Shown: positions 19,299 to 51,689 of the stretch, in pieces
Layout: every line of letters begins with the position of its first letter
How positions within the stretch are numbered: the first letter of the stretch is position 1
IMG/VR virus record: IMGVR_UViG_3300021256_000097
Strand: one strand, 5' to 3'
Source of the DNA: a virus
Length of the DNA stretch: 64,000 nt
The notes under the pieces: model-generated
What the model was told of the DNA's origin: nothing
What the model saw: the letters and a program-made list of their open reading frames with translations, nothing else
Database searches by the model: none
Translations under genes and position numbers: made by a program

Positions 19299-19341
19299 TT
19301 TTACTTTATAATTTACATATTATAAATAATAGGAGATATAT

Positions 19342-20799
19342 GTGCGTAGTTCTAGCGTAGATGTGGATGAAGTAAAGCCTTTTGAAAATGTTTTTGGAAA
19401 TAATAAAAAGGCTAATAAAAATAGACTTAGAGATACAATAATCTCAGCTGTGGAACTTTCACGTAGAACGAAAGTTCCAATGTTATTTTTTAGCAATCCA
19501 GGTTTTGGTAAGACAACAACAATTTATAATATTGCACAGAGACTTGGAATGCATGTTGAAGTTGTTTGTGGTTCTCAGTACTCTCAGGATGAAATTTTGG
19601 GATTCCAGACAAATGAGCCAGGTCAGACCTCATTGGTAATTAAAGAGCCAGAATGGTTTGCTCGTATTAATGAATTTGAATCACGAAAAATTCCATCTAT
19701 TCTTTTTATGGATGAACTTTCAACTGTATCAGGTCCTACTCAAGGTGCTTGTTTGCAGGTTATTTTTGAGAGACGCATTCGTGGTGGTAAGGCTTTGCCA
19801 GACGATTGTTTGATTATTGCTGCGGCCAACTATAAAGGAAACTTGTCTGGTTGGTCTGAAATTATTGCTCCAACTTTGAATCGTTTCTGTATTATTAACC
19901 TTCTTCCAGAAGATCCTGTTGAAGCTATTATGGAGTTTACGCAGGATGTCCATGAAAATCAGGATAATTGGCCAGAGTTTGACAATAATAATATAACAGA
20001 CGCAGTAAAAAATACCCTTGTTTCAGAATGTGGCTTGATTTTCCAGAACTTATTTAGAACTTATCAGGCTGGGTCAAATCGTGGCTTCTTGAATATCCGT
20101 AATACAATGTATGATGGCATCTATGACCGCGACGATGGAAATCCAGAAGTATTGAACTTTATTTCTGGTCGTACAATGTCATATTTAACACGCTGCCTTA
20201 TTGGTATGACAGAAATGGGATTGGATAGCCATTCAGATGTTTTCAAAAAAGTAATTGGTGGGCTTATTGGTTTAGGCACAAATACTTGGTCAGAAGATGG
20301 TAATATACAGACCCAGACAGCTCGTCTTGAGAAGTATCTTACAGATGTTACAGCTAAGTTCTCCAAGATTTTGGATAAGGCAGTTTCAAAAGTTAATTCT
20401 AGTAAGTCATCAGACGGAGATAAAGCAGCTATAAATCGTCTTAACGAACTTGTAGGTGAGGACAACTTTACAAATCATGTAACTGCATTTATTGCAAATC
20501 AGGACCCAAATAAATATGCATCAACTGATTTTACAACTCTGTTTAAGGAAGCTTGTGAATTATTCCCTTCAGTTGAAGGTATGAAAGATTCATTAAACGC
20601 TAGCTTCCAGAGCCAGGAAGAGATGCTGTTGTTCAAGTCTAATATGGAATGGCTTGCAAAGCTTTATGATGAAGTTGATTATGCAAACTCTGTAACGGGT
20701 TACTTAAAGCCATATATGCTTGAAATTGATAAGATGTATAGAACATATGAGTTCTATTATAACACAGCTTGTGTTTTACTTAATGAGGAAGAAGACTAA
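19342..20799 (+). CDS. MoxR/AAA_5-type AAA+ ATPase
   Basis: NPGFGKTT Walker A and ILFMDEL Walker B. GTG start after AGGAG. Confidence 0.7.
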   Translation: MRSSSVDVDEVKPFENVFGNNKKANKNRLRDTIISAVELSRRTKVPMLFFSNPGFGKTTTIYNIAQRLGMHVEVVCGSQYSQDEILGFQTNEPGQTSLVIKEPEWFARINEFESRKIPSILFMDELSTVSGPTQGACLQVIFERRIRGGKALPDDCLIIAAANYKGNLSGWSEIIAPTLNRFCIINLLPEDPVEAIMEFTQDVHENQDNWPEFDNNNITDAVKNTLVSECGLIFQNLFRTYQAGSNRGFLNIRNTMYDGIYDRDDGNPEVLNFISGRTMSYLTRCLIGMTEMGLDSHSDVFKKVIGGLIGLGTNTWSEDGNIQTQTARLEKYLTDVTAKFSKILDKAVSKVNSSKSSDGDKAAINRLNELVGEDNFTNHVTAFIANQDPNKYASTDFTTLFKEACELFPSVEGMKDSLNASFQSQEEMLLFKSNMEWLAKLYDEVDYANSVTGYLKPYMLEIDKMYRTYEFYYNTACVLLNEEED

Positions 20800-21044
20800 T
20801 GGCAAGAGAAAAGAAGATTGTAGAAATAGTAGACATGGTATTAGTAAACCATGCTGAAGTTGGCGATATTCCATTGATTTATTATCAGGATAAATTCTAT
20901 GAAGCCGCTTTTACTCTTAAGCTTTCACAGCAGGTAGACGTTTCAAGTATTAAGGGTGTATATTTCCCTTCTAAAAAAGGCATGGAACTTCTGAGTGTAA
21001 AAGACTTCGCAAAAAAATATAAGAACGTTAAAGCATTAAGCTAA
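20799..21044 (+). CDS. Hypothetical small protein, coupled to the AAA+ gene (TAATG)
   Basis: Overlapping stop and start. Confidence 0.45.
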   Translation: MAREKKIVEIVDMVLVNHAEVGDIPLIYYQDKFYEAAFTLKLSQQVDVSSIKGVYFPSKKGMELLSVKDFAKKYKNVKALS

Positions 21045-21060
21045 GGGATAAGTAGTTAGA

Positions 21061-22713
21061 ATGAACGCAAGAGCTAAACGTATTGCTAAAAAAATTAAAG
21101 AGCCTCTCGTAGTTAAAGACCCATCATTGTTAGATGCTGCTGAAGCAGAAATGGCAAAATTGGTATGGGTTCCAATTGAGGATGATTTCCCTCCAATGAA
21201 AATGGCTTTTGCAACTAAAACTAATGATAACTGCTATAAAGTTTTTGTAAATAATAAGATTCCTGAAAGGTACCGAAACCAGTTTAAGTTGCATGAGTAT
21301 GGTCATATTCTTTTCGGACACCTCTTAGATCTTGATGAAAATAATCAGCAGCTAAAACATAAGTTTACGCAGTTTTGGCCAAAGATTAAAAAGCATATTG
21401 AGCTTGAGCCAGAAGATGAAAATAAAGATATTTTGGATATATTCCAAAAATATTTACTTCCCGTTCAGAATCTTTTTGAAAACTACGCTATGGATATGGA
21501 AGTAAACTCTAAGCTCTTTACCAATGCTGCTGAAAGAAAACAAATGCGTGAAATTACAAGTATTGCCTTAGTATTAGCAATACTTAATGATGACTCTACT
21601 TCAGACAGTGTACTTGACCAAATTGAGGACCATATAAAGAATAAGCCTGATGAGCCACATGCTAAGCCAATTTATCCAGAAGACTATGGTTTTCCAGATA
21701 AGAAGTCTTTCACTGAATATCTTGATTTAATGTTCTTAAATCTCGATAAGTTTATGGACTTGCTAAAGCAACAAGCTAAGGACCTGGACCTAGGTCCTTC
21801 TAATGGTAATTCTGGTAATAATGGCGATGGCGATGGTGGTAGCGGATCTAAGCTCTCACTAGAAGAAATCGAAGCATTAAGAAAAGCAGCTAATGCATCT
21901 GATACTGATAAAGAAGAAAATAATAAAATTGCTGAAAAAGCAGGCCATGGAGAAGGTGCGGATGACTTTAGTGATGGTGACAGTGAAAGTGAAGACTCTG
22001 ACCCAGCTGATGGTGAAGGTGCTGGTAGCGGCTGGACAGGCAATAGAGGCTTTGGTGCAGTAGGGCATGGTCACAAAGAAGAAGTTATCGAGTTAGGCAA
22101 TGGTAAATCCCTAGCTAAATATTTAGAAAAAGAAGTATTTTCTAAGCATGTAAGTAACACTCGTGTAAATGAAATGTATTACTATAATCGTAGAAAATAT
22201 GGCGATAAAGATGTTGTTGCGAAGTTGACAAAAGAAGAGCTTTATAGGCCAGGAAATCTTATCCTTGTAATTGACTGTTCTGGCTCAATTGATAAGAAAG
22301 CAATTAGAATTATGATTAGCGTAATTCGTCAGCTTTCTAAAAAGTGTGGGCCAAGATCAAGAGTAATTTGGTGGGATACAAGATTATGTGGCGATACATT
22401 TTTGAGACAGGAACAGGAGCCTTGTAGTGGAGGATGTACTGATATTGCTGGTGGTATTAAATATGCTGCTGAGCATTATCTTAAGCATTCCAATGATAAA
22501 CTTGTAGTTATTAGCGATTATTGTGATACGCTTTCTAGATGGCTAGAGGAAGCTGAAAAGTTTAAGAATGACATTATTGGTATTGGATGGACATATCAAG
22601 CGTCAGGATCTGTTAGTGAATTTATTCGTAGCAACTACTGGACAGGGTCTGTTGATGCTGATAAGTTTATGAAACGAATTCGTACTAAAATCGTTAGAAT
22701 AGATAATAGATAG
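21061..22713 (+). CDS. Metallopeptidase-like (HEYGH) N-domain plus a C-terminal von Willebrand A domain
   Basis: HEYGHILFGH (HExxH) and LVIDCSGS MIDAS motif. An acidic G/D/S-rich linker separates them. It sits next to the MoxR-like ATPase. Confidence 0.65.
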   Translation: MNARAKRIAKKIKEPLVVKDPSLLDAAEAEMAKLVWVPIEDDFPPMKMAFATKTNDNCYKVFVNNKIPERYRNQFKLHEYGHILFGHLLDLDENNQQLKHKFTQFWPKIKKHIELEPEDENKDILDIFQKYLLPVQNLFENYAMDMEVNSKLFTNAAERKQMREITSIALVLAILNDDSTSDSVLDQIEDHIKNKPDEPHAKPIYPEDYGFPDKKSFTEYLDLMFLNLDKFMDLLKQQAKDLDLGPSNGNSGNNGDGDGGSGSKLSLEEIEALRKAANASDTDKEENNKIAEKAGHGEGADDFSDGDSESEDSDPADGEGAGSGWTGNRGFGAVGHGHKEEVIELGNGKSLAKYLEKEVFSKHVSNTRVNEMYYYNRRKYGDKDVVAKLTKEELYRPGNLILVIDCSGSIDKKAIRIMISVIRQLSKKCGPRSRVIWWDTRLCGDTFLRQEQEPCSGGCTDIAGGIKYAAEHYLKHSNDKLVVISDYCDTLSRWLEEAEKFKNDIIGIGWTYQASGSVSEFIRSNYWTGSVDADKFMKRIRTKIVRIDNR

Positions 22714-22717
22714 ATTT

Positions 22718-22749
22718 AAGCCGGTATTTTCTACCGGCTATTTTTTTGC
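22718..22749 (+). terminator. Intrinsic terminator
   Basis: aagccggta...taccggctt hairpin plus T7. Confidence 0.65.
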
Positions 22750-22769: not shown

Positions 22770-23309
22770 ATGAAAGAGTTATACATTCGTGCGGGCAACT
22801 CCAGCGATACTAAAAGAGTACTGATTATTGGAGAAGAAGATATTTTAGGTGCCCGAGATAATTCAGGATATAAACCAAGTAAAGGACAAATATTTGAAAG
22901 CCTTATAGAAATTGATCCATATTCAGGCGGAAAAGATCTAACATATGTACATGTCACACCCAATATAAAATTGGATACAAATCTTTATTCTAGAGACTAT
23001 GATGTTCATAAGTTTATAAAACGCTCCTGCAAAGATTTAGTAAAATGGGACGGTGAAGCAGATGAAGGATTAGTACGGTCTAGAGAAGCTTTTATTGTAA
23101 AAGATGGCCTTGATGTGGATAAAGTTGCTAAAGAACTTTATAATAGAATTGAAAAAGAAATTCATTATAAAACTGTATCCGAGGCCGTATTTGAAGAGAT
23201 TAAAAGAAAAACTGTGGAAGAAGTTAAAAAACAGTATCACCTAGATGACTTGGAAAAGTCTTTAAGGCTACTTAAGGATTTAACTAAAATAGCAAAAACA
23301 TTAAGATAA
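22770..23309 (+). CDS. Hypothetical protein
   Basis: GGAGG RBS. Confidence 0.5.
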   Translation: MKELYIRAGNSSDTKRVLIIGEEDILGARDNSGYKPSKGQIFESLIEIDPYSGGKDLTYVHVTPNIKLDTNLYSRDYDVHKFIKRSCKDLVKWDGEADEGLVRSREAFIVKDGLDVDKVAKELYNRIEKEIHYKTVSEAVFEEIKRKTVEEVKKQYHLDDLEKSLRLLKDLTKIAKTLR

Positions 23310-23486: not shown

Positions 23487-24971
23487 ATGGCAGATTATTC
23501 TGTTGCTAGCAACGATGCATTCGCTGCATTTGTTAAAAAGTCTGAAGAGGAAGAAGCAAAACTTCAGGCAAAATCTTCCGGAAATGGCGGCAAGTCATTT
23601 ACTTATGAAACTCAGCAGTGGGTAGGTCTTGATCAGGGACAGGCTCACATCCTTCGCTTAGTTGGCAATCCACCAGAATCACTTACACCTGGCTTTAAGG
23701 CTGGCCCTTATGATGCTCACGAAATCTACTTTGAAACAATCAAAGATGATAACGGTGACCGTATGCAGCTTCGTCTTCCTTGTCATGCAGAAGACATTAA
23801 TGATGAACACATTATGTGGCGTATCATCAATAAGGTAAAGGAAGTTGATTGGGTTGATGATCCAGCAAATCCAGGAAAACGTAAGAGAATTCCAAAGCAC
23901 GAAAAGACTTTGGTATATGACAAGATTACACACGGCGGTTTTAACCCAGCAGACCCAAAAGAAGCAGATTCATATCGCTATTCAAAAGGTTGGTCCGGAC
24001 AGCAGGTAACAATTATGAATGTTATCGACCGTGAAGACGACTGGTGTAAAACAAATAAGCATACAAAGCTTTTGTCAAAGAAAGTTTCATATAAAGACGG
24101 CGTTGCTTACCCTACAGTAGGTGTTCCTTCATACGGATTCCTTTCAACACTTAAGAAGCTTGTAAAGGTTTATGGTAGTTGGGAAAACTACGACGTTCAA
24201 GTTGTAAAAACTGGACAGATGAATACGCCTTATGAAGTAAAGAACGCTTCATATTACAAGAGTGTAGGTGTTCCTGAAATTGATCAGTCTAAGCTTGAGT
24301 ATATCTCACTTGACCAGTCACTTACAGCAGAAGAAAAAGCTTACGAACGTTATGATATTGCAAAGTTCTATTCACCAACATCTTACAAGAACTTGAAAGA
24401 GCGTCTTGGAAAAACAATCCAGGAAGTTGACTCAACATTCAACACACACTTCTATCAGGAACTTGTTTCTCTCGCAGAAAAAGAAGAAGCTGAAAGAAAA
24501 GCAGCTCAGGAAGAAGAAGCAGCAAACAATCCTGCTCCAGAAGCCCAGACAGCTGCTCCTGTTTACACAGCAGTTTCTGATCCAGCGCCAATTGTTGAAT
24601 CTACTCCTGCTTACCAGCCAGCTTCAATTCAGCAGCCAGCTCAGGTAGCTCCAGTTGTGGAACCAGCAAAAGTTGCAGAACCTGTAAAAGTTGCAGAACC
24701 AGTAACTCCTGCACAACCAGCTGTAGCAACACGTAGTACAGTAAACATTGGTACATTAGCACCAAACAAAATTGCAGCTCTTAAGGGCTGGATGAAGCTT
24801 ACAGAAGCTCAGAAGGCTCAGATTAAGGATGTAGTTTTGGATGCAAATGGCGCAGTTACAAATGTTATTTATACAGAAAACGCTGCTCCACAGTGCAACT
24901 GTAACAATTGTATGATGCCATCACCACAGGATTTCTTATCTTGTCCAGTTTGCGGTGCTGACTTCGAATAG
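23487..24971 (+). CDS. ssDNA-binding protein, T4 gp32-like
   Basis: GQAHILRLVG resembles gp32 GQAVIRFLP. A P/A/Q-rich linker (PAPEAQTAAPVY...) and a C-terminal Cys cluster are present. Confidence 0.4.
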   Translation: MADYSVASNDAFAAFVKKSEEEEAKLQAKSSGNGGKSFTYETQQWVGLDQGQAHILRLVGNPPESLTPGFKAGPYDAHEIYFETIKDDNGDRMQLRLPCHAEDINDEHIMWRIINKVKEVDWVDDPANPGKRKRIPKHEKTLVYDKITHGGFNPADPKEADSYRYSKGWSGQQVTIMNVIDREDDWCKTNKHTKLLSKKVSYKDGVAYPTVGVPSYGFLSTLKKLVKVYGSWENYDVQVVKTGQMNTPYEVKNASYYKSVGVPEIDQSKLEYISLDQSLTAEEKAYERYDIAKFYSPTSYKNLKERLGKTIQEVDSTFNTHFYQELVSLAEKEEAERKAAQEEEAANNPAPEAQTAAPVYTAVSDPAPIVESTPAYQPASIQQPAQVAPVVEPAKVAEPVKVAEPVTPAQPAVATRSTVNIGTLAPNKIAALKGWMKLTEAQKAQIKDVVLDANGAVTNVIYTENAAPQCNCNNCMMPSPQDFLSCPVCGADFE

Positions 24972-25608: not shown

Positions 25609-26637
25609 TTGGATTTATCGACTACTATAAATAAGGTTTGGGGAAATACTATTCAGAGTAAACAACCCATTTGGGCTACAAAAGAGATTATTGCAAAAGC
25701 AAATGATCTTTCGAAGAGAAATATAAGAGGAAATCTTGCTAAGTTTGTAAAACCTACAAATATTAGAATGTTTCCTGATGGTGGAATGGATGACCCACTT
25801 TTCGTAGATAGAAACGTTCGTCGTTATGGTACAGACATTTACTTTTTGGATGCAATTGATGATGAAACACAGTTGATTCTTCAGGTAATGCTTAAGCAAG
25901 CACAGGCTGAGTTCCTTGGTGACCATGTGCAGGATATTCTTACACAGACACTTTCTGATACAGTTACTATTCATTTGAATTCGCCAGGTGGATACGCTTA
26001 CTGTGGACTTGCACTCTATGATTTTATTAAGCAGATGCAGGTACCAGTTACTTGTGTAGTTGAAGGTTCTTGTGCATCAGCTGCCACACTTATATTGCTT
26101 GCTTGTGAAGAACGTCATATGCTTGATAACTCAGTATTCTTGATGCATCAGTGCTCTTGGGGCGCTTGGGGTGAAAATCGTTATATGCAGGATGAAGCAG
26201 AAAATAGCCGTAAGCTTATGTCTCGCCTCCGCAAAATTTATCTTGATGAAACAGAAATTGGAAAAGAGTATACTGATCCAAAAGAACGTGAAAGCTATAT
26301 TCAAGCTATTCTTGAACATGACAGATATTTCTCAAAAGAAGAATGTGAAAAGCTTGGTATCTTGAAATGTGATTGTGATGGTGAGCCACCACTTAGTGAA
26401 GCTTCAATTGCAAAGCTTAATGAGTTTGCTCAGAAGTTGTATGAGGAAGAACAGAAAGCTAAGGGAAAAGCTATACCAGCTAAAAAGGACGTAAAAGATA
26501 AAAAAGATACTAAAGAGAAAAAAGTTGATTCAGATGATGATGACAAACCAGCTAAAAAGCCTGGTAAGTCTAAAAAGACTGAAAAGGATTCAGTAGATAA
26601 AGATCCACCAGTTCGTAAGTCAACTAAAAAGGCTTAG
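25609..26637 (+). CDS. ClpP-family serine protease (possibly a prohead protease) with a K/D-rich C-terminal tail
   Basis: LNSPGG, GSCASAA (Ser) and FLMHQ (His) motifs. TTG start after GGGAG. Confidence 0.65.
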   Translation: MDLSTTINKVWGNTIQSKQPIWATKEIIAKANDLSKRNIRGNLAKFVKPTNIRMFPDGGMDDPLFVDRNVRRYGTDIYFLDAIDDETQLILQVMLKQAQAEFLGDHVQDILTQTLSDTVTIHLNSPGGYAYCGLALYDFIKQMQVPVTCVVEGSCASAATLILLACEERHMLDNSVFLMHQCSWGAWGENRYMQDEAENSRKLMSRLRKIYLDETEIGKEYTDPKERESYIQAILEHDRYFSKEECEKLGILKCDCDGEPPLSEASIAKLNEFAQKLYEEEQKAKGKAIPAKKDVKDKKDTKEKKVDSDDDDKPAKKPGKSKKTEKDSVDKDPPVRKSTKKA

Positions 26638-27803: not shown

Positions 27804-28907
27804 ATGGACGAAATCAATGAAATCGTAAAAACATTGACAGAATGGCGGAATGCTTACTACAATGGTAGCCCAGTCGTATCAGACGCTGAGTTCGATGACC
27901 TTGAAGATAAGCTCAGACAGCTTGATCCAGATAACGAATACTTTAATGGAATTGGTGAAGATGAGCTGGATGGCTTTCCAAAAGCAAATCACACTATTCT
28001 TATGGGTAGCCAGGAAAAATGTAATACCGTTGAGGAAATTATCAAGAAGCTTAATCATTTTACTGGTAAAAAAGTTGCAATGCTTGTAGAGCCAAAATGT
28101 GATGGAATCAGTCTTGAATTGAACTACAAAGATGGAAAAGCAACAGCGCATATTACTCGTGGCAATGGTTATGTTGGTGATAACATTACTGTAAACGCTT
28201 CAAAAATGCAGGGTGTACCCGCGGGTATTCCTGTTTCGGAGGGTGTTGCTATTCGTGGCGAAATTATGCTGCTTCATTCTGATAAAGAAAAATATTTCCC
28301 AGAACTTAAGAACTGTCGTAATGGCGCTTCTGGTATTGCAAAGAATAAAGATGGAATCGGATGTGAGCATCTTACCGTTGTATGCTACGATTGCCAGTAT
28401 ACCGACGAGGATAAATCTTTCGGAACAGAAGCAAACAAACTCGACTTTCTTACTCAGTGTGGCTTTATGCGCGTAAATGCGGATATGGTTATTGCTGACT
28501 GTACAACTCCAGCTGGAATTAAAAAAGCTGCTGAAGATTTGATGGCAAAAATGAATGAGTTTACAATGACAGAACGTGAATATGACACTGATGGTGTTGT
28601 TGTTAAGCTCAACATTATCGATGACCACGATCTTCGTACAGAACTTCACCCAAAAACTCAGTGGGCCATTAAACCTGCTCGTGTAGAAGTTGAGACTACT
28701 CTTATCGATATTGAATGGAACATGACAAATGGTAGCCTGGTACCAGTAGCAATCTTTGAACCAGTTGTCCTGGATGGCGCAACAATCCAGCGTGCAAGCC
28801 TTGTAAATGTAGCAGAAATTGAACGTCTTGGCCTGTATATCGGCGCAAAGATTATGGTATCTCGAAGAAATCTTGTAATACCTAAAGTAGAGAGATTAGC
28901 TGCGTAA
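27804..28907 (+). CDS. ligA: NAD-dependent DNA ligase, N-terminal fragment (adenylation plus OB domain only)
   Basis: EPKCDGISLELNY (KxDG) and TRGNGYVGDNIT. It ends right after the OB-fold ...NLVIPKV, which matches LigA DVIPQV. Confidence 0.8.
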   Translation: MDEINEIVKTLTEWRNAYYNGSPVVSDAEFDDLEDKLRQLDPDNEYFNGIGEDELDGFPKANHTILMGSQEKCNTVEEIIKKLNHFTGKKVAMLVEPKCDGISLELNYKDGKATAHITRGNGYVGDNITVNASKMQGVPAGIPVSEGVAIRGEIMLLHSDKEKYFPELKNCRNGASGIAKNKDGIGCEHLTVVCYDCQYTDEDKSFGTEANKLDFLTQCGFMRVNADMVIADCTTPAGIKKAAEDLMAKMNEFTMTEREYDTDGVVVKLNIIDDHDLRTELHPKTQWAIKPARVEVETTLIDIEWNMTNGSLVPVAIFEPVVLDGATIQRASLVNVAEIERLGLYIGAKIMVSRRNLVIPKVERLAA

Positions 28908-31008: not shown

Positions 31009-31839
31009 ATGAATATTAAAGATTTTATCAAGGCAAATCCAAATGCGCAGAAATGGAATCTTCCATCAGTCTGTCCAGTTTGTGGAGCTGATCTTGAACT
31101 TAATGAAAATCATACAGACATCGTTTGTACGAATGAGGGCTGCAAATCAAAGCTTATCGGACGCTTAAAAAAGTGGGCTGAGAAACTTGAAATCAGAGAG
31201 CTTGCTCCTACAACTCTGGAAAAGTTCATTGATGGTGGTCTGATTAAGAATGTATCTGACCTTTATAAAGCAGACTTTTCTGTTATTGCAAATTGGCCCG
31301 GATTTGGTGAGCGTTCCGCTGAAATCTACAAGAAAAACATTTCAAAAGCAACAACTGCAACTCTTGCTCAGTTTATCGCAGGTTATAATATTGGTGATGT
31401 TGGTGAAAAAGTTGTTCAGAAGATTATTGATGCAAAAGGTATCCGCGAACTTTCTGAATTTGCAAATCTCAGAGCAGAAGATCTTGTTTGTGAAGGCGCT
31501 GGTATTACAACCACAAGAAAGCTTATTGATGGAATCTCAGCTGTCTGGGATGATATGCTTGAAACATCTAAGTACGTAGCAATCGAAGTACCAGCAGAAA
31601 AAGATTCTAACAAGCTCGCTGGAATGGTATTCTGCTTCACAGGAAAAGCTTGTCTTCCACGTCCGCAGCTTCAGGCAATGGCGGAAGCAAATGGTGGAAA
31701 GTGTGCTTCTTCAGTATCTAAGAATACAACTTATCTTGTAACTGATGATACAGACACTGGATCAAGCAAGAACAAGAAAGCTGCTGAGCTTGGTATCCCT
31801 GTAATCACATCAGAACAGTTCTTGGAGCTTGTAAAATAA
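31009..31839 (+). CDS. ligA: NAD-dependent DNA ligase, C-terminal fragment (Cys4 zinc finger, HhH, BRCT)
   Basis: CPVCGADL...CTNEGC zinc finger, HhH region, and BRCT (FCFTGK...LVTDD). It has its own promoter at 30983-30992 and its own RBS. Confidence 0.8.
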   Translation: MNIKDFIKANPNAQKWNLPSVCPVCGADLELNENHTDIVCTNEGCKSKLIGRLKKWAEKLEIRELAPTTLEKFIDGGLIKNVSDLYKADFSVIANWPGFGERSAEIYKKNISKATTATLAQFIAGYNIGDVGEKVVQKIIDAKGIRELSEFANLRAEDLVCEGAGITTTRKLIDGISAVWDDMLETSKYVAIEVPAEKDSNKLAGMVFCFTGKACLPRPQLQAMAEANGGKCASSVSKNTTYLVTDDTDTGSSKNKKAAELGIPVITSEQFLELVK

Positions 31840-32825: not shown

Positions 32826-32902
32826 ATCGGTTTTTATACTCTGCATAAACTATAAACATATAATATATGTAAACTAAAACAATTACTTTGGAGGTAATAC
32901 TT

Positions 32903-33895
32903 ATGATTATGTCAACTGAAAAGAACAAAGTTCTTACAAATGCAAGTGACGCAGAGACAAGAAACTTTACAATTGCTTGTAACGAAAATATTCTTGATAC
33001 CTTGTCAAGACGTCTTTACACAAACATTCCACGTGCTGTAATTCGTGAGCTTGTGTCAAATGCAATCGATGCAAATATTGAAGCTGGTGTTGATGAAAAA
33101 ATCCTGCTTCACCTGCCAAGCGGACTTGAGCCAGAGTTTTATGTTGAAGACCATGGTATCGGTATGAATGAAGAGACAATCTACAACGTTTATACTCAGT
33201 ATGGTAACTCAACTAAGAATGGCTCAAACAATTGTATCGGTGGACTTGGACTTGGTTCAAAAACTCCATTCGCTTACACAGACCAGTTTTTCGTAATTTC
33301 TTCAAAAGATGGTGTTAAGAATACTTTTGTCTGCTTTAGAAATGAGCAGGGAGAAGCTTGTATCACTAAAATGGCATCTGAAGCATGTTCTGAAACTGGT
33401 ACAAAGGTATCATTCCCAGTAAAGGAAAATGACATTCGCAGCTTTACTAACGAGGCTGTCATAACTTTACTCTTCACTATGAAGATGCCAGAACTTGTTG
33501 GTGAAAAGGATCGTTTCTTAAGAGTAGCTGGTGTTGAGTCTCTTGAAGAATATGAAGCACTTCGTAAAGAACTTGCTGAGAACACTTACATCACAAATGA
33601 AAAGCTGCGTTCACTCATCAACTACTCGTCTTCTTATGGTAAACTTATCGTTGAAATGGGCGGAGTTGCTTACAAAGTAGATTCTAACGAAATCTTCGAA
33701 GATGGTAACTACAATCCTGTTCTGGAATATATCTGCAAGAAAAGCGATCTTCAGGTATTCCACTTGCCAATCGGCGCAGTTCAGATCCAGTCTTCTCGTG
33801 AAGCGCTCAACTACACACGTTTCACAAAAGAAGCTCTTACTAAGCTGTTTATTCAGGAATTCTTGGCAGATGCTAAGAAGGTAATTGCAGCTTAA
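32903..33895 (+). CDS. GHKL-superfamily ATPase (Hsp90-like N-domain)
   Basis: RELVSNAIDA (N box), EDHGIGM (G1) and GGLGLGSK (G2). Confidence 0.6.
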   Translation: MIMSTEKNKVLTNASDAETRNFTIACNENILDTLSRRLYTNIPRAVIRELVSNAIDANIEAGVDEKILLHLPSGLEPEFYVEDHGIGMNEETIYNVYTQYGNSTKNGSNNCIGGLGLGSKTPFAYTDQFFVISSKDGVKNTFVCFRNEQGEACITKMASEACSETGTKVSFPVKENDIRSFTNEAVITLLFTMKMPELVGEKDRFLRVAGVESLEEYEALRKELAENTYITNEKLRSLINYSSSYGKLIVEMGGVAYKVDSNEIFEDGNYNPVLEYICKKSDLQVFHLPIGAVQIQSSREALNYTRFTKEALTKLFIQEFLADAKKVIAA

Positions 33896-33970
33896 GTCAA
33901 GACAAGTCAGTTCAGTTAAAAAAATAATTTAAAAAAGTTGCGCAGATTTTATACTCTGCGCAGCATATTT

Positions 33971-33980
33971 ACATATTATA
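33971..33980 (+). promoter_or_regulatory. Promoter core ACATATTATA. The TATACT element lies 15 nt upstream, inside the loop of the preceding terminator hairpin.
   Basis: ttgcgcagattttatactctgcgcag hairpin, then the core motif. Confidence 0.6.
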
Positions 33981-34014
33981 AATGTAAACGATTAAACATC
34001 AAGGAGGAATTAAG

Positions 34015-35427
34015 ATGAATAAAATCGGCACAGCGTTGACAATTTTTAACAACAACGGTTTTGAAGCTGCTTTCAAAGAAGCTCAGAAGTACACTGGTTA
34101 TTTGACAGACGAAGACCGTGCATTGCTTAGCCAGTTAGACGCTTCAGTTAAGGCAAAAGAAGAGGCTTTTACAAAGACTGTCGCAAAGTTTGCAGCTAAT
34201 GGCTTCAAAGTTCTTACTCTTACAAATACAAAATCTGGAAAGAATACTTCTTCAAGCGTTCTTTCACTCAAGTCAGAAACTTCTCGTAACTTGTTCGGCT
34301 TGTCTATGGAATTGAGCAAGTTCCAGAATACTGATGTATTAGTAGCTGATGATGCTCGTTTTCAGGACGACTTGTTTGCAAGAGGCCTTGCTAAGGTTCT
34401 TCGTGAAACTCTTAATTTTGATGGCTGTTATGCAAAAAAGAGCTTTATTGCTCTTCCAGCAAGTAAGCTCAAGTCTTACGAAAAGGTTTTCGATATTGGT
34501 ACAGTTTACAACTTGTCTAGCCTTCTTGATGCAGCAAAAGAAAAGGCAAGACAGGCACGTAAGGTAGCAGCTACTGGTGAACGTTGCGAAGCTGGTGATG
34601 CAGAGCTTTTTTATCAGGTGCTCTATTTTGATACAGCTTCTAATGGCTGGAAATCAAAATACAATATGTCTTATAACAAGCTCAAAGCTGAGTTTGCTGG
34701 AAAGACAATTGTTGCAGCTATTCGTGGAAAAAATGGTGATAACAGCTATGACTATTACGCAGACGTTCGTATTCCTACCGATAAGGCTTCTGAAAAGACA
34801 TTTACAACTTCTGATATTAGCATAAAAAGTCTTCATAACGGTATGTACTACGTTGCCAAGAACTTCGGAGTAGCTGAAAATTATGTTTTGGCTTACTTGT
34901 CTGGTGGTAGTTACAAGCGTCTTAAACTCTGGCGTGATACAGATATTTTGCTTGAAAAACAGACACTTATTGACATCTACCGCGAAAAACTTGCAAATCT
35001 TAAGCCAGTTGAAATTGTGAATTACACAGATAACTTGCTTAACGAGAATAACATTACAGACGTTAAGGCTTGTATTGACAAATACTCAACATTGGCCGAT
35101 CGTCAGACAAAGTTCTACAAGAGATTTGCAATGGCTGTAACAAAGCTTGAACAGCAGGAAACTCTTCGTCAGAGTGACGAGTACGCAACATACTTCAGAA
35201 ATCAGAGTGACTTGAGAGAACTTGGATTTAATGAGCTGGTAACTTACAAGACTGTAACACCAGAACTCTTCGCTGACTACCCAATGCTTAAGCACTTCGG
35301 TTATAGTTATGGTTCTGATCTGCGTCTTTCAAGAGATGGCGCAGTTAGAGAAATGTTCGACTACGTTTCTATGGTAGAAGAACTTCAGGCTATGAAAGCT
35401 GCATCTGTAACTGAACAGGTTGCGTAA
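34015..35427 (+). CDS. Hypothetical protein (470 aa)
   Basis: Promoter, GGAGG RBS and long ORF. Confidence 0.55.
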   Translation: MNKIGTALTIFNNNGFEAAFKEAQKYTGYLTDEDRALLSQLDASVKAKEEAFTKTVAKFAANGFKVLTLTNTKSGKNTSSSVLSLKSETSRNLFGLSMELSKFQNTDVLVADDARFQDDLFARGLAKVLRETLNFDGCYAKKSFIALPASKLKSYEKVFDIGTVYNLSSLLDAAKEKARQARKVAATGERCEAGDAELFYQVLYFDTASNGWKSKYNMSYNKLKAEFAGKTIVAAIRGKNGDNSYDYYADVRIPTDKASEKTFTTSDISIKSLHNGMYYVAKNFGVAENYVLAYLSGGSYKRLKLWRDTDILLEKQTLIDIYREKLANLKPVEIVNYTDNLLNENNITDVKACIDKYSTLADRQTKFYKRFAMAVTKLEQQETLRQSDEYATYFRNQSDLRELGFNELVTYKTVTPELFADYPMLKHFGYSYGSDLRLSRDGAVREMFDYVSMVEELQAMKAASVTEQVA

Positions 35428-35514
35428 GTTAAATAAGTTTTGAAAAAAGTTCGGAAGTTTTGTGCTTCCGAACTACTATAGACATATTATATATGTACAA
35501 TGGAGGTACACGTT

Positions 35515-36630
35515 ATGGAAAACAAAATGCGTTACATGGTAACATCGAATGGCTTGTCAGTATTCTTTGCTGGTAAGAAACCTTTTATGGTTGCAAAAGA
35601 CCATCCAAACTTCAATGCAATTCTTGAGGCTGTAACAGCTGATAAGGCTCCTTCTTATGAAGACATTGAAAAGTTGGCTGAGATCAAGAAGTCTTTGACA
35701 ACTCTGTCTTATGACAATGTTGAAATTGCTCTTGATGAAAATGACGAACTGATCTTGAAGCTTGACGGAAAAGTAACTGAAGTTCTTTCTTCTGCTCTTA
35801 TCGGCCGTTTGGTTGGTATGCTTCGTGAATCAGAAAGCCCACTCCGCAAGGCAGTATTCCAGTCATTCGCAAAGTTCATTTCGAACCTTTACAAGAATCC
35901 TTCTTACCGCTCTGTAAAGCAGATGTACGGCTTCCTTGAAGCAAACAACTTGCCAATCACTCAGAATGGTACATTCTTGGCTTACAAGAAAGTTCGCGGT
36001 GACTATTTTGACATTCATTCAGGCACATTCGACAATTCAGTTGGAAAAGTTGTTGAAATGCCTCGTAATCAGGTTGAAGACAACCCAGAAATCACTTGTT
36101 CACACGGCTTGCACGTTTGTTCATATGGTTACTTGAAACATTACTCATCAGCTTCTGATGACCGTATTGTAATCTGCGAAGTAAACCCAGCAGATGTTGT
36201 ATCAATTCCAACTGACTACGACAACGCAAAAATGCGTGTATGCAAGTACACTGTAGTTGATGAAGTTCCAAGCCACTTCACAGCACAGCTTTCATCTTAC
36301 GTTTACGGTAAGCATTCAGATGGCTGGATCAACGAGACTTACAAGAAGCTTGAAACACTCTTCAAGAAGTTCTTCGCTGTTGAGCATGTTGATTTTGATC
36401 ACTTGCCTAACACAATCAGCTATAACGACATGACACCACCAGTTATCGAAGACTTCTACAAAGAAGCAGAAGCTGTTGGCTTGAATGTTCCAACTAAGTT
36501 GAAGGACCTTTCTCTTGAAAAAGAATGTGTACCTACAATGAAGACAATGTTCCAGTGGCTCGCTAAGTACGACTCAAACTGGGTACGTCCTACAGCTGCT
36601 GACACAGAAGACGAAGCTGACGCTGAATAG
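35515..36630 (+). CDS. Hypothetical protein (372 aa)
   Basis: Promoter 35482-35491 and GGAGG RBS. The start was moved to the ATG after the RBS. Confidence 0.55.
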   Translation: MENKMRYMVTSNGLSVFFAGKKPFMVAKDHPNFNAILEAVTADKAPSYEDIEKLAEIKKSLTTLSYDNVEIALDENDELILKLDGKVTEVLSSALIGRLVGMLRESESPLRKAVFQSFAKFISNLYKNPSYRSVKQMYGFLEANNLPITQNGTFLAYKKVRGDYFDIHSGTFDNSVGKVVEMPRNQVEDNPEITCSHGLHVCSYGYLKHYSSASDDRIVICEVNPADVVSIPTDYDNAKMRVCKYTVVDEVPSHFTAQLSSYVYGKHSDGWINETYKKLETLFKKFFAVEHVDFDHLPNTISYNDMTPPVIEDFYKEAEAVGLNVPTKLKDLSLEKECVPTMKTMFQWLAKYDSNWVRPTAADTEDEADAE

Positions 36631-39603: not shown

Positions 39604-39676
39604 TCGGGAGTCGGCAAGCGGTAAGCCCCCGGCTTTTGGTGCCGGTATTCCACAGGTTCGAATCCTGTCTCCCGAA
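39604..39676 (+). tRNA. tRNA-Gln (anticodon TTG). CCA is not encoded.
   Basis: Acceptor tcgggag/ctcccga. Anticodon stem ccggc/gccgg with loop ttTTGgt. T-arm acagg-ttcgaat-cctgt. Confidence 0.7.
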
Positions 39677-39834
39677 CAAGGCCAATAACAGGCCGTATAA
39701 TAACATATTTACATAAAAAAGTTTTCAACTTTTTTCTCTCCTAAGAGCCCTATAATTTTTATAGGGCTCTTTTTTACTTTCTATAGTATTGTAGACATAT
39801 TATATATACAAAATAAATATATGGAGGCTTAAAA

Positions 39835-40788
39835 GTGAATAAGCGAATTATTAAATGGACAGCACTTGGTGTTATTGGAATTTTGGTTCTTATAACCGGG
39901 CTTAATTGTTGTTCTGTAATTGATCCTACAGAAGAGGCTGTAACTGTAACATTGGGTTCTCTTGGTAATGATAACATTGGTCAGGGATTGCATTTCAAAG
40001 CGCCTTATGTGCAGACATTCCGCAAGATTGACAAAAACCCTATTGAATATAAGAAGTCAATTCCGCTCGGTGAAAAGGCTCTTATTACTAAAGATGGCCA
40101 GTCACTTGGTGTTGATTTTACTATGACATGGAAATATACTGATGGTTCAGCAGTACTAGTAGCTAAGCGATTCAGTGATAAAAACTCTTTATATAATTTG
40201 ATTTCAAATCCTTGTAAACAGGCGTTTAAGTCAGAAATTGGTAAGCTTGAAGCACTTGAGTTTGTAGGTAAGCAGGATGAAGTAATAAGTAAAGTAATGG
40301 ATCGTGTTACTGCTGAAACGGCCCGTTTGCAGTTGCCTATTGAGATTCTTAATATTGTAATTGAAAATATTAACTGGGACCCTGGTTTTGAGGCTCAGAT
40401 TAAGAAAACTGCTGAGATGCGTGCGCAGGTAGAACAGGCTAATCAGGCTGCTGACCAGGCTGCTGCTATTGCCCAGAAGAAAGTACGTGAAGCCAAAGCT
40501 GATGCTGACGCGGCTCTTGAAAAGAAACGTATGACTGAAGCAGAAGCTGAAGCAGAAGCTAATGCGGAATTGATTAAAGCACAGAAAGCTGCTGATGCAA
40601 AGCGCGTCGAAGCTGATGCTCTTGCCTATTACAATGCAAAAGTTGCGCAGAACTATCAGGTAGAAATTAAGCTTAAAGAACTTGAAATTGAGCTTGAGCG
40701 TGCTAAGAAATGGGATGGACGACAGGTACCTGAATATATTCCATTGACAGCTGCTGGTGGTATTGTAAATCTTCCGGAGAAGAAATAG
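39835..40788 (+). CDS. SPFH/band-7 (HflK/C, stomatin)-like membrane protein
   Basis: N-terminal TM segment, SPFH-like core, and an Ala/Glu-rich coiled coil (AEAEAEAEANAE). Confidence 0.55.
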   Translation: MNKRIIKWTALGVIGILVLITGLNCCSVIDPTEEAVTVTLGSLGNDNIGQGLHFKAPYVQTFRKIDKNPIEYKKSIPLGEKALITKDGQSLGVDFTMTWKYTDGSAVLVAKRFSDKNSLYNLISNPCKQAFKSEIGKLEALEFVGKQDEVISKVMDRVTAETARLQLPIEILNIVIENINWDPGFEAQIKKTAEMRAQVEQANQAADQAAAIAQKKVREAKADADAALEKKRMTEAEAEAEANAELIKAQKAADAKRVEADALAYYNAKVAQNYQVEIKLKELEIELERAKKWDGRQVPEYIPLTAAGGIVNLPEKK

Positions 40789-45574: not shown

Positions 45575-45659
45575 GTATCAGTGGTCGAGAGGTCGAAGAC
45601 AGCAGACTGTTAATCTGCCGAGCGAAAGCCCACCACAGGTTCGAACCCTGTCTGATACG
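45575..45659 (+). tRNA. tRNA with anticodon GTT (Asn-like) and an atypically long 16-nt variable region. Identity is uncertain.
   Basis: Acceptor gtatcag/ctgatac. Anticodon stem gcaga/tctgc with loop ctGTTaa. T-arm acagg-ttcgaac-cctgt. Confidence 0.5.
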
Positions 45660-46151
45660 CTAAAAATCCAGGATCTAATACCTGGTTAGAAGTGTATTAG
45701 AGACCTAATATGAGCGGATGGTTTTACCAGATGAAACTTGTATTAGAAGGCTATTACTTTACAAATACTGTACGCTTGTGTCAGTCCTTGCGTTAACGAT
45801 GCGCAGGTATAACGGCTGGGAAGGTTCGTAGAAAGCCTAAGCTTAGAGTACTATGCTCAATACCGTAAGTCCGTCGCCTCAAGTTTGATTCTACCTATTA
45901 TATGATAAGGGTCGACTGACAGCCTACGGAAGTTTAGGGATTGATAGTAGGTGACCAATTATACGAGTCGTAATCCCTTTATAAATAACCATTATATGGA
46001 AGAGTCCTTAGGGAATGGCCTACCGAAATGGTAACAATGGGAATTGAAGTACTATTGGGGAGTGAACCGATTATAGGAACATTGTAGTATAGTGGTATTT
46101 ATAAACGATTTTTGTTAGTTATGTTAGTTTTATACTTTATTTGGTAAGCTA

Positions 46152-46164: not shown

Positions 46165-46428
46165 ATGAAATTATGCGTATAATATGAAAGTTGAAATTTC
46201 ATAAAATACGCTAATATAAATATAACAGAAAATGCTGTAGGATTAGGTTTACTTAGATTCTATTTTTGGTTTAGAAAAAACAAAGAGCCTATCCGATTTT
46301 TCGCTTTTCTTAATTTTGGAATTATATGTAAGCCGACTCCCTATTACCAAATCGGGACCCCTCCTTGTCGGATTCATATGAGACATAGTTACGGGAAGCA
46401 TGCGAATGCTTCCTTTTTTTTTATTTAT
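46165..46428 (+). ncRNA. Candidate small ncRNA, about 260 nt from promoter to terminator, immediately upstream of the Ro60-like gene (possible Y-RNA-like RNA)
   Basis: The unit is bounded by the promoter and the gggaagcatgcgaatgcttcc+T9 terminator. An internal 13-bp hairpin gcgtataatatgaaa/tttcataaaatacgc is present. No ORF or RBS. Confidence 0.35.
46393..46424 (+). terminator. Intrinsic terminator
   Basis: gggaagcat gcga atgcttcc plus T9. Confidence 0.7.
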
Positions 46429-46471
46429 AAAATTATTTAATAAACTTCAGTTTGAAGTGAGGAGAAATAAA

Positions 46472-51663: not shown

Positions 51664-51689
51664 GTTCGGTAAATATAACTAATTTAAGT

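What the first reader, a model, noticed from the sequence alone, without database searches (positions are those of the whole stretch)
19342..22713. MoxR-type AAA+ ATPase paired with a metallopeptidase-like/vWA protein in a phage
The operon runs AAA+ (GFGKTT/ILFMDE), a coupled 81-aa ORF, then a 550-aa protein with an N-terminal HExxH (HEYGH) domain, an acidic G/D/S-rich linker and a C-terminal vWA (DCSGS MIDAS). MoxR-VWA pairs are cellular chaperone or metal-insertion systems. In a phage they are uncommon and uncharacterised. Possible roles are virion or complex maturation, or manipulation of host complexes. Note the second vWA protein in the window (Ro60-like).
Basis: partly seen in the sequence, partly recalled or inferred. 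Interest (0 to 1): 0.6.

Follow-up and report, generated by a model that had tools for sequence, protein, structure and literature searches.

The report
Phage MoxR ATPase with peptidase-vWA partner
A huge uncultured phage carries a very divergent copy of a gene pair, a MoxR-type ATPase plus a zinc-peptidase/vWA adaptor, that is already known to be common in phages (it equals N4 gp24/gp25) but whose job is still unsettled.

Summary
Three co-oriented genes encode a 485-aa AAA+ ATPase, a translationally coupled 81-aa protein, and a 550-aa protein with an HExxH domain, acidic disordered linkers and a vWA domain with a complete MIDAS site.

That module is not rare. The ATPase family is in 492, and the partner in 685, of 50,697 phage records, where the partner is often mislabelled "HNH endonuclease". 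Both genes are among the 14 core genes of N4-like phages. The peptidase-fused form was described in jumbo phages in 2021.

The window copy belongs to a divergent subfamily of huge phages. In 50 of 51 related viral loci the ATPase lies upstream, and the small ORF is specific to one clade.

The likely mechanism is ATP-driven remodelling and cleavage of a protein held by the MIDAS site. The target is unknown. Published data point to counter-defence (Bas54) or to virion association (phAPEC6, ATV).

Verdict: a new member of a known kind, of modest interest.

The parts
19330..19336 (+). Ribosome-binding site (AGGAG) ahead of the GTG start of the ATPase gene
   Evidence: Read directly from the sequence. 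The N-terminus that follows is conserved in homologues.
19342..20799 (+). MoxR-type AAA+ ATPase, 485 aa (N4 gp24-like): AAA+ core and lid (about residues 28-310) plus a family-specific C-terminal helical extension (about 322-484)
19501..19518 (+). Walker A motif GFGKTT (residues 54-59)
   Evidence: G54 and K57 are invariant in 40 homologues.
19699..19716 (+). Walker B motif ILFMDE (residues 120-125)
   Evidence: D124 and E125 are invariant. Sensor-1 N163, the 'LNRF' arginine R181 and the 'SGRT' sensor-2 R277 are also invariant.
20799..21044 (+). 81-aa accessory protein, translationally coupled to the ATPase gene by a TAATG overlap; clade-specific and fast-evolving
   Evidence: Overlap read. 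Homologous ORFs lie in the same slot in L005 (E = 3e-11), the L010/L015/L046/L051 clade (5e-6) and L011. An HMM of this family hits only the ORF directly after the ATPase, in 10 loci. It is absent from the largest clade, where the gap is about 70 nt.
21061..21789 (+). N-terminal zincin-like (divergent DUF2201_N-type) peptidase domain of the 550-aa protein, residues 1-243
   Evidence: HExGHxxxxH (H78, E79, H82, H87) and D145-x-E147-x-N149 are invariant. phrog_87 'metallo-protease' E = 1.7e-4. DUF2201_N and Peptidase_M78 each hit only 2 of 40 members. hhalign global against canonical phage DUF2201_N domains: 81%, E = 1.4e-6, with both motifs in register. Well folded in the AF2 model.
21292..21321 (+). 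Zinc-binding/catalytic motif HEYGHILFGH (residues 78-87)
   Evidence: Invariant in the family. The same HExxHxxxxH spacing is seen in PBECO4 gp009, KPP21 gp079 and 2L372X_049.
21790..22074 (+). Acidic G/D/S-rich disordered linkers flanking a conserved amphipathic helix (residues 244-338)
   Evidence: pLDDT below 50 at 244-261 and 298-338. The helix at 267-293 is conserved as 'KLSL(E/D)DIE.LRK.AN'.
22075..22713 (+). C-terminal vWA domain with a complete MIDAS site (residues about 339-550)
22273..22287 (+). MIDAS DxSxS motif DCSGS (residues 405-409)
   Evidence: D405, S407, S409, T460 and S485/D486 are invariant even among relatives of 20-28% identity.
22719..22739 (+). Terminator-like hairpin followed by a T-run, directly after the stop codon of the 550-aa gene
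   Evidence: Consensus scan only; not proof of function.

Best explanation
This is a very divergent, huge-phage version of the widespread phage module known as N4 gp24/gp25. It consists of a MoxR-type AAA+ ATPase and a two-domain partner with an N-terminal zincin-like peptidase (DUF2201_N type) and a C-terminal vWA/MIDAS domain (DUF2201 / CoxE type). In this clade a small coupled accessory protein is added.

Proposed mechanism:
- The ATPase forms a hexameric ring (inferred from MoxR relatives).
- The partner docks on the ring through its vWA region (inferred from RavA-ViaA, CbbQ-CbbO, NorQ-NorD and ATV p618-p892).
- The MIDAS metal grips an acidic residue of a target protein (inferred from a fully conserved MIDAS).
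- ATP hydrolysis remodels the target (catalytic motifs shown to be conserved).
- The zinc peptidase domain cleaves it (the catalytic HExxH glutamate and candidate metal ligands are invariant, so activity is likely retained).

The operon is compact and sits among replication and other early/middle-type genes.

On the biological role, I favour a host-directed or counter-defence target (about 40%) over virion or phage-complex maturation (about 30%).

Shown here: gene structure, motif conservation, folds, family links, gene pairing. Inferred: the physical complex, the proteolysis, and the target.
For: Identity:
- hhalign of the ATPase family against N4 gp24-like, Vequintavirus MoxR and PBECO4 ATPases gives 99.4%, E = 8e-22, over 223 columns reaching into the lid.
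- hhalign against the canonical phage partners gives 98.9% over the vWA domain and 81% for the N-domain, with both motifs in register.
- The canonical partners are DUF2201_N + DUF2201, well above Pfam's cut-offs.

Catalytic competence: all ATPase motifs, the HExxHxxxxH/DxExN set and the MIDAS are invariant.

Functional coupling: the ATPase lies upstream on the same strand in 50 of 51 IMG/VR loci, and the TAATG overlap couples translation.

Timing and context:
- DnaC-like loader, DnaB, primase-like gene, dCMP deaminase and NAD-ligase flank the module.
- The same synteny occurs on a 429-kb relative.
- DnaB, the loader and p494 stay nearby after rearrangement in another clade.
- In N4-like phages the module directly precedes gp37/gp39, and gp24/gp25 are middle transcripts (PMC4193335).

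Role: in Vequintavirinae phage Bas54 the MoxR ATPase is dispensable on E. coli K-12 but required to overcome the predicted defence system DS-28 (bioRxiv 10.1101/2025.11.20.689424). BASEL Vequintavirus orthologues belong to the ATPase family that matches ours.
Against: - The window proteins themselves fall below Pfam's curated cut-offs for AAA_5 (20.6 against 22), DUF2201 (17 against 26.4) and VWA. DUF2201_N gives no hit on the window protein.
- N-domain homology has only moderate profile support (81%). I could not run a fold search restricted to that domain.
- No physical interaction, ATPase activity or proteolysis has been shown for any bacteriophage member.
- The Bas54 result concerns only the ATPase, in a lineage about 27% identical to ours. 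The vWA partner was not reported as a hit, and the work is a preprint.
- Being a core gene pair of all N4-like phages fits a basic developmental role better than an accessory counter-defence role.
- The homologous ATPase was detected in purified phAPEC6 virions (PMC7247149), and ATV p618 is a virion protein (PMC4124505). Both favour the morphogenesis rival.
- A ClpP-type protease gene lies 3 kb downstream, so the neighbourhood is not purely a replication module.
Confidence: 0.6

Rival explanations
1. Virion-assembly chaperone-protease. The MoxR-vWA pair helps assemble the head or tail, or processes structural proteins. This was proposed for group 2.2 jumbo phages, by analogy with ATV p618/p892 in tail development.
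For: - Proposed explicitly for the same architecture in PMC7824862.
- ATV p618 is a virion protein that binds p892 and tail proteins, and its ATPase is stimulated by p892 (PMC4124505).
- The phAPEC6 'ATPase' gp265c (49.5 kDa, the size of the PBECO4 gp010 orthologue) was found in purified virions with 6 peptides.
- In PBECO4 the pair adjoins virion structural genes.
- A ClpP-type protease with a long basic tail lies 3 kb downstream in the window.
- Core-gene status in N4-like phages fits an essential developmental role.
Against: - In the window, in the 429-kb relative and in N4-like phages the module sits among replication or middle genes, not structural genes.
- The Bas54 MoxR ATPase is non-essential on K-12, which is hard to reconcile with an obligatory assembly factor.
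- The phAPEC6 virion list also contains thymidylate synthase, so carry-over of non-structural proteins is plausible.
- No structural genes were identified near the pair in L018.
Confidence: 0.3
2. Cofactor-insertion or complex-maturation chaperone for a phage or host enzyme, such as a replisome component, in the manner of NorQ/NorD, CoxD/CoxE, CbbQ/CbbO or the BchI/BchD and CobS/CobT chelatases.
For: - VWA_CoxE is the commonest Pfam match among distant relatives (22 of 39).
- An acidic linker before the vWA domain resembles BchD and midasin (my own knowledge).
- The module is stably linked to replication genes.
Against: - No BchH/CobN-type large subunit or obvious metalloenzyme client was found in the neighbourhood.
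- NCBIfam gives no chelatase, NorQ or CoxD hit.
- The invariant, apparently active zincin domain is not a feature of those systems.
- The vWA protein lacks the AAA-like N-domain of BchD.
Confidence: 0.08
3. A phage-borne conflict system of the vWA-MoxR type, for superinfection exclusion or defence against competing elements. The peptidase would be the effector and the small protein a third component.
For: - vWA-MoxR ternary systems with effector domains fused to the vWA protein, rarely a metallopeptidase, are known bacterial conflict systems (PMC7159879).
- bpMoxR (PF20030) matches 9 of 40 ATPase homologues.
- The third gene evolves fast.
Against: - No VMAP or other defining third component is present; the 81-aa protein has no detectable relative outside this slot.
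- PADLOC gives only marginal IetA P-loop matches.
- Core-gene status in a lytic phage family is atypical for an exclusion cassette.
Confidence: 0.07
4. The ATPase is a replication protein (clamp loader, helicase loader or MCM-like helicase), and its adjacency to the vWA protein is incidental.
For: - The gene lies in a replication gene cluster.
- There are weak NCBIfam and PHROG hits to RFC/clamp loader.
Against: - MoxR, BchI and RavA score higher than the MCMs.
- phrog_1297 (2e-22) far outscores the clamp-loader family (3.5e-7).
- A separate clamp-loader subunit, a DnaC-like loader and DnaB are already present.
- The pairing with the vWA gene holds in 50 of 51 loci across rearrangements.
Confidence: 0.02

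Closest known systems
Phage N4 gp24 / gp25 module (MoxR-like ATPase + DUF2201_N-DUF2201 protein), including its counterparts in Vequintavirinae, Rak2/121Q/PBECO4-type jumbo phages and Plateaulakevirus
   Same: - Same two-gene logic and order (ATPase upstream), often with a small ORF between.
- Same ATPase family (hhalign 99.4%).
- Same partner layout, with HExxHxxxxH, D-x3-N and DxSGS MIDAS motifs.
- Placed next to replication genes in N4-like phages.
   Different: - Only about 25-30% identity in the ATPase core, and no tblastn match at all for the partner.
- The window partner is below Pfam's cut-offs.
- It has an insertion of about 45 residues between the two zincin motifs and much longer acidic linkers.
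- The ATPase has a long C-terminal helical extension.
- The intervening small ORF is unrelated to those of N4-like or Vequintavirus phages.
MoxR-vWA(+metallopeptidase) pair of 'group 2.2' jumbo phages described by Iyer et al. 2021 (PMC7824862)
   Same: The same architecture was described in words: a MoxR AAA+ ATPase plus a vWA co-chaperone fused to an N-terminal metallopeptidase, in very large phages.
   Different: That work proposed a virion-assembly role. Here the module is embedded in a replication or early/middle-type neighbourhood. I did not compare directly with the accessions they cite. PBECO4, a member of that type of phage, served as proxy.
Acidianus two-tailed virus p618 (MoxR) / p892 (vWA)
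   Same: It is a viral MoxR ATPase with a vWA partner. It is the only viral pair with biochemistry: the proteins interact, and the partner stimulates the ATPase. ORF892 is a weak structural match (Foldseek E = 4e-3).
   Different: It is an archaeal virus. There is no peptidase domain on p892, p618 is a virion component, and the proposed role is extracellular tail growth.
Cellular MoxR-vWA systems (RavA-ViaA, CbbQ-CbbO, NorQ-NorD, CoxD-CoxE; BchI-BchD; midasin/Rea1)
   Same: The ATPase belongs to the same AAA+ clade, with these proteins as nearest structural neighbours. The vWA/MIDAS adaptor logic is shared, and an acidic segment precedes the MIDAS domain as in BchD and midasin (the latter point from my own knowledge).
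   Different: The client is unknown, a zincin domain is fused to the adaptor, there are no NCBIfam equivalog hits, and the setting is a phage genome.

Membership tests
MoxR-type AAA+ ATPases (helix-2-insert clade; Pfam AAA_5 / AAA_3) | Intact Walker A, Walker B, sensor 1, arginine finger and sensor 2 | tested here: met
   G54/K57, D124/E125, N163, R181 (LNRF) and R277 (SGRT) are invariant in 40 homologues.
MoxR-type AAA+ ATPases (helix-2-insert clade; Pfam AAA_5 / AAA_3) | Score above the curated Pfam cut-off for AAA_5 or AAA_3 | tested here: inconclusive
   The window protein scores AAA_5 20.6 bits against a cut-off of 22, and AAA_3 15.1 against 27. At family level, AAA_5 matches 37 of 40 and AAA_3 18 of 40 at E <= 0.01. 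Relative L018 passes AAA_5 at 30 bits.
MoxR-type AAA+ ATPases (helix-2-insert clade; Pfam AAA_5 / AAA_3) | The nearest solved structures are MoxR-family or close-clade ATPases | tested here: met
MoxR-type AAA+ ATPases (helix-2-insert clade; Pfam AAA_5 / AAA_3) | Beta-hairpin inserts at helix 2 and before sensor 1 | tested here: inconclusive
   The model's secondary structure shows short strands at 88-90 and 99-101 before helix 104-114, and at 145-151 before strand 157-162. This is consistent with both inserts, but coordinates were not inspected.
MoxR-type AAA+ ATPases (helix-2-insert clade; Pfam AAA_5 / AAA_3) | A genomically linked vWA/MIDAS partner | tested here: met
   The partner is adjacent in the window. 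The ATPase is upstream on the same strand in 50 of 51 IMG/VR loci.
DUF2201_N-DUF2201 proteins (N4 gp25-like; 'putative metallopeptidase + VWA-like') | C-terminal VWA-like domain with a DxSxS...T...D MIDAS | tested here: met
DUF2201_N-DUF2201 proteins (N4 gp25-like; 'putative metallopeptidase + VWA-like') | N-terminal DUF2201_N domain (HExxHxxxxH followed by a D-x3-N helix) | tested here: inconclusive
   Both motifs are present and invariant, with the same internal spacing. hhalign global gives 81%, E = 1.4e-6, in register; local gives 71%. Pfam DUF2201_N hits only 2 of 40 members, and there is an insertion of about 45 residues between the motifs.
DUF2201_N-DUF2201 proteins (N4 gp25-like; 'putative metallopeptidase + VWA-like') | Scores above the Pfam curated cut-offs | tested here: not met
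   The window protein scores DUF2201 17 bits against 26.4, and DUF2201_N gives no hit. It is therefore filed as a divergent relative, not a Pfam-defined member.
DUF2201_N-DUF2201 proteins (N4 gp25-like; 'putative metallopeptidase + VWA-like') | Encoded next to an N4 gp24-like ATPase | tested here: met
   Searches show the arrangement in canonical phages. links the window ATPase to that family.
vWA-MoxR ternary conflict systems (Kaur et al. 2020) | A VMAP or equivalent third component and an effector-position domain | tested here: not met
   No such protein is present. The 81-aa ORF has no relatives outside its slot, and PADLOC has no system-level hit.
Mg/Co chelatase (BchI-BchD-BchH; CobS-CobT-CobN) | A large porphyrin-binding subunit, and a D/T subunit with an AAA-like N-domain | tested here: not met
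   Neither was found in the window. There are no NCBIfam hits. The partner's N-domain is zincin-like.
HNH endonuclease (the label carried by phrog_1314 and many RefSeq records for the partner) | An HNH/His-Me finger nuclease domain | tested here: not met
   The proteins so labelled in PBECO4, KPP21 and 2L372X are DUF2201_N + DUF2201 with no HNH hit. The window protein matches phrog_1314 only through its vWA domain.

The most novel reading that the evidence does not exclude
The module is an ATP-powered, MIDAS-targeted protease that huge phages, N4-like phages and Vequintavirinae use during the early or middle phase to recognise and destroy a host immune or stress protein. The fast-evolving 81-aa protein would act as a specificity adaptor or a regulator. 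If so, N4 gp24/gp25-type genes would form one of the most widespread counter-defence machines in phages, hidden under 'HNH endonuclease' and 'ATPase' labels.
Probability: 0.3. Interest if true: 0.65.

Novelty: new member of a known kind. Interest (0 to 1): 0.3.

Why it matters
The pair itself is not new. It is a core module of N4-like phages and is present in hundreds of cultured phages, yet its function has never been established. Published hints point in different directions: virion association, middle-phase expression, and a requirement against one bacterial defence system.

This window adds three things:
- The module reaches a very divergent form in huge uncultured phages.
- The pairing and all the catalytic residues of the ATPase, the peptidase and the MIDAS site are kept across that divergence, so all three activities are probably needed.
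- A clade-specific third gene exists.

There is also a practical by-product. The partner is widely mislabelled "HNH endonuclease", which hides the module in annotation-based surveys. The biology is best tackled in N4, Bas54 or PBECO4-type phages rather than in this uncultured genome.

Tried and rejected
Searches that found nothing useful:
- Nucleotide search of the operon against 50,697 phage records: no match.
- tblastn of the 550-aa protein against the same records: no match.
- NCBIfam and PADLOC: only marginal P-loop hits.
- Sequence-profile search of the PDB: only generic AAA+ and MIDAS-strand matches, nothing for the N-domain.
- The afdb50 fold library was unavailable.
- p494 has no PDB, Pfam or PHROG relative. 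p179 is not detectably related to the ORF in the same position in L010.
- The sample accessions do not appear in the paper library.
- A search for 'N4-like + von Willebrand + ATPase' found no papers.

Results that corrected an early lead:
- My family HMMs (A1, A4) did not detect the Aeromonas 2L372X partner. The link was made only through Pfam and hhalign.
- The small ORFs after the ATPase in N4-like phages and Vequintavirus are unrelated to the 81-aa family.

Readings rejected:
- HNH endonuclease.
- Clamp loader or MCM-like helicase.
- Chelatase.
- VMAP-type ternary conflict system.


Full report
**What is in the sequence**

Three co-oriented ORFs lie on the + strand at the coordinates given:
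- 19342-20799, 485 aa, with a GTG start six bases after an AGGAG.
- 20799-21044, 81 aa.
- 21061-22713, 550 aa.

The stop of the first gene and the start of the second overlap as TAATG. A terminator-like hairpin with a T-run at 22719-22739 follows the third gene directly.

**Genome context**

The window matches a 940,564-bp ENA metagenomic scaffold exactly. It is phage DNA. It carries rIIB (phrog_609, E = 8e-68) preceded by a GHKL-ATPase gene of the rIIA type, a phage sigma factor, two tRNAs and a tmRNA. Almost every gene is on one strand.

The trio sits inside a cluster of replication and nucleotide-metabolism genes. Upstream are a DnaC/IstB-like loader, DnaB and a primase-like protein. Downstream are dCMP deaminase, a ClpP-type protease and an NAD-dependent ligase.

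**The ATPase**

- On the window protein alone, only the generic AAA family passes its Pfam cut-off. AAA_5 scores 20.6 bits against a cut-off of 22.
- Among 40 homologues, AAA_5 matches 37, AAA_3 matches 18 and bpMoxR matches 9.
- Walker A (G54, K57), Walker B (D124, E125), sensor 1 (N163), the LNRF arginine (R181) and the SGRT sensor-2 arginine (R277) are invariant.
- The AlphaFold model is confident (pLDDT 87).
- About 160 C-terminal residues form a family-specific helical extension.

**The 550-aa protein**

- The model has pLDDT 78, with both domains at 80-95 and the G/D/S-rich acidic stretches (244-261 and 298-338) disordered around a conserved helix.
- The MIDAS residues D405, S407, S409, T460, S485 and D486 are invariant, even among relatives of 20-28% identity.
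- In the N-terminal domain, H78, E79, H82 and H87 (HExGHxxxxH) and D145-x-E147-x-N149 are invariant.
- Curated families see this N-domain only faintly: phrog_87 'metallo-protease' at 1.7e-4, and DUF2201_N and Peptidase_M78 in 2 of 40 members each.

**Link to a known phage module**

The ATPase matches phrog_1297 (E = 2e-22). By tblastn it finds distant homologues in Vequintavirinae, Plateaulakevirus and other phages.

Starting from the Klebsiella KpS8 homologue, that ATPase family is present in 492 phage records. These include Vequintavirinae (several annotated 'MoxR ATPase'), N4-like phages and Rak2/121Q/PBECO4-type jumbo phages.

The gene arrangements in cultured phages are as follows:
- PBECO4: the ATPase is followed directly by a 474-aa 'HNH endonuclease'.
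- N4-like KPP21 and Ab09: the order is ATPase ('N4 gp24-like'), a small ORF of 153-164 aa, then a 395-408-aa protein ('HNH endonuclease' or 'N4 gp25-like'), then gp37-like and the gp39-like DNA polymerase.
- BASEL Vequintavirus genomes: the MoxR ATPase (bas48_0063, bas59_0062) lies beside rIIA/rIIB. A 'putative metallopeptidase' (bas48_0055) is about 3.6 kb away.

The 'HNH endonucleases' of PBECO4, KPP21 and Aeromonas phage 2L372X are in fact DUF2201_N (E = 2e-35, 2e-30, 2e-15) plus DUF2201 proteins. They carry the motifs HEILHCAYDH, HEIGHIVRLH and HELSHCIHDH, then ADYxIN, then DxSGS. These have the same spacing as the window's HEYGHILFGH, MDMEVN and DCSGS.

The partner family is in 685 phage records.

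Profile-profile comparison ties the window families to these canonical ones:
- ATPase: 99.4%, E = 8e-22, over 223 columns that run into the lid.
- vWA domain: 98.9%, E = 1e-17.
- N-domains alone: 81% in global mode and 71% in local mode, with both motifs in register and an insertion of about 45 residues in the window family.

I therefore file the window pair as a divergent relative of the N4 gp24/gp25-type module. Membership of the N-domain in DUF2201_N is probable but not proven.

**Distribution and conservation of the window's subfamily**

- An exhaustive profile search found 176 clusters at 50% identity with E <= 1e-30, and 1,199 with E <= 1e-3.
- IMG/VR holds 51 loci, and 38 of them lie on contigs of at least 200 kb.
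- In 50 of the 51 loci an ATPase of the same family lies upstream on the same strand. It is usually within 320 nt or overlapping, and in two loci it is separated by inserted genes.
- In the most divergent large clade, the pair passes Pfam's curated cut-offs outright: AAA_5 at 30 bits and VWA_CoxE at 41 bits.
- The 81-aa ORF is a real family but a clade-specific one. Homologues occupy the same slot in L005, in the L010/L015/L046/L051/L052 clade and in L011/L012. An HMM of the family finds nothing else in any locus. The largest clade has no room for it.
- Homologues of DnaB, the loader and p494 stay close to the pair in a second clade despite a rearranged order.
- The 429-kb relative keeps the full synteny and adds a 251-aa stand-alone copy of the N-domain.

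**What is already known**

- Iyer et al. [quoted passage not shown] They proposed virion assembly with peptidolytic processing (PMC7824862).
- Chan et al. 2014 list N4 gene 24 (unknown) and gene 25 (vWFA) among the 14 core genes of N4-like phages and note that they are middle transcripts (PMC4193335).
- ATV p618 is a MoxR ATPase in the virion. It binds the vWA protein p892 and tail proteins, and p892 stimulates it (PMC4124505).
- The phAPEC6 'ATPase' gp265c, of the size expected for the PBECO4 gp010 orthologue, was detected in purified virions. So was thymidylate synthase (PMC7247149).
- A 2025 preprint reports that the Bas54 MoxR ATPase (bas54_0063) is dispensable on K-12 but required, together with bas54_0140, to overcome the predicted defence system DS-28 (10.1101/2025.11.20.689424). 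I infer that bas54_0063 is orthologous to bas48_0063 and bas59_0062 from the annotation and the gene position. I did not read the Bas54 genome.

**Mechanism**

The conserved pairing is shown, as is the retention of every catalytic residue of three activities: ATP hydrolysis, zinc peptidase and MIDAS adhesion.

The rest is inferred from characterised MoxR-vWA systems:
- The ATPase forms a hexameric ring.
- The partner docks on the ring.
- The MIDAS metal binds an acidic residue of a client protein.
- ATP hydrolysis remodels the client.
- The zincin domain cleaves it.

The acidic linker might serve as an internal MIDAS ligand or as a ring-binding segment. That is speculation.

For the biological role, I favour a host-directed or counter-defence target (about 40%). 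The reasons are the Bas54 genetics, the early/middle genomic setting and the fast-evolving accessory gene. Virion or phage-complex maturation comes second (about 30%), supported by the virion detections and the core-gene status. Cofactor insertion, a phage-borne exclusion system and a direct replication role are less likely.

**Verdict**

The premise that such pairs are uncommon in phages is not.

This is a new, highly divergent member of a known, widespread and functionally unresolved phage module. The findings that are useful beyond the window are:
- The evidence that all three activities are under selection across deep divergence.
- The clade-specific third gene.
- The recurring link to replication-type neighbourhoods.
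- The widespread 'HNH endonuclease' mis-annotation of the partner.

Interest is modest (0.3).

Noticed in passing
whole window (ENA scaffold SHIW14-1_SAMN02144230-S004_METAG-scaffold_1, about positions 311173-375172): The window lies on a 940,564-bp metagenomic scaffold whose content here is clearly phage. From memory, this is larger than any published phage genome (about 735 kb). It could be a real giant phage, a concatemer or a chimera.
   Followed up: no
window 46400-47917 (+), with the tRNA gene at 45575-45660: This is a genuine TROVE/Ro60 protein (PF05731 E = 2e-10; phrog_850 E = 9e-36). An unusually long 86-nt tRNA-Asn gene lies about 740 nt upstream. No Y-RNA family reached Rfam's threshold, but a tRNA-like Ro60 partner RNA is worth checking.
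   Followed up: partly
window 51298-51666 (+): A phage-encoded tmRNA with tag peptide DAQNEYAMAA (ARAGORN; Rfam RF00023 at 54 bits). There is also a tRNA-Gln at 39604-39677.
   Followed up: partly
window 1973-4663 (+): An 896-aa P-type cation-transporting ATPase (E1-E2_ATPase E = 3e-35, Cation_ATPase_C E = 2e-29) encoded in a phage. This is an unusual auxiliary gene.
   Followed up: no
window 27804-28907 and 31009-31839 (+): The NAD-dependent DNA ligase appears split into two genes about 2 kb apart. One carries the adenylation and OB domains. The other carries the HhH/BRCT part (phrog_3869 positions 377-653 of 656). Several ORFs lie between them. The same split is seen on the 429-kb relative L005.
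   Followed up: partly
phage records PBECO4 gp009, KPP21 gp079, 2L372X_049 and hundreds more (loci L059, L060, L001): DUF2201_N + DUF2201 (peptidase-vWA) proteins are widely annotated 'HNH endonuclease', which is also the label of phrog_1314. No HNH domain is detectable, so this is an annotation error that has propagated.
   Followed up: yes
L005:12030-12785 (429-kb contig): A 251-aa stand-alone paralogue of the N-terminal peptidase-like domain (E = 9e-27 against the family profile) lies a few genes downstream of the full-length gene. The same contig also encodes ribosomal protein S21.
   Followed up: partly
window 23487-24971 (+) (p494) and 22770-23309 (p179): p494 has an N-terminal domain, an Ala/Pro/Glu-rich linker and a C-terminal CxxC...CxxC tail. 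It stays just downstream of the pair in two clades despite rearrangement of the other neighbours. It has no Pfam, PHROG or PDB relative. It could be a partner, a client or an SSB-like protein.
   Followed up: partly
window 32888-36630 (+): An rIIA-like gene (GHKL ATPase, HATPase_c_3 E = 3e-9), an unannotated 470-aa ORF and rIIB (E = 8e-68) lie about 10 kb downstream of the module. In Vequintavirus the MoxR gene sits directly beside rIIA/rIIB.
   Followed up: no
window 25609-26637 (+) and 39835-40788 (+): A ClpP-family protease with a long lysine-rich C-terminal tail, which may be a prohead protease/scaffold fusion or a true Clp subunit. An SPFH/Band-7 protein is also encoded.
   Followed up: no
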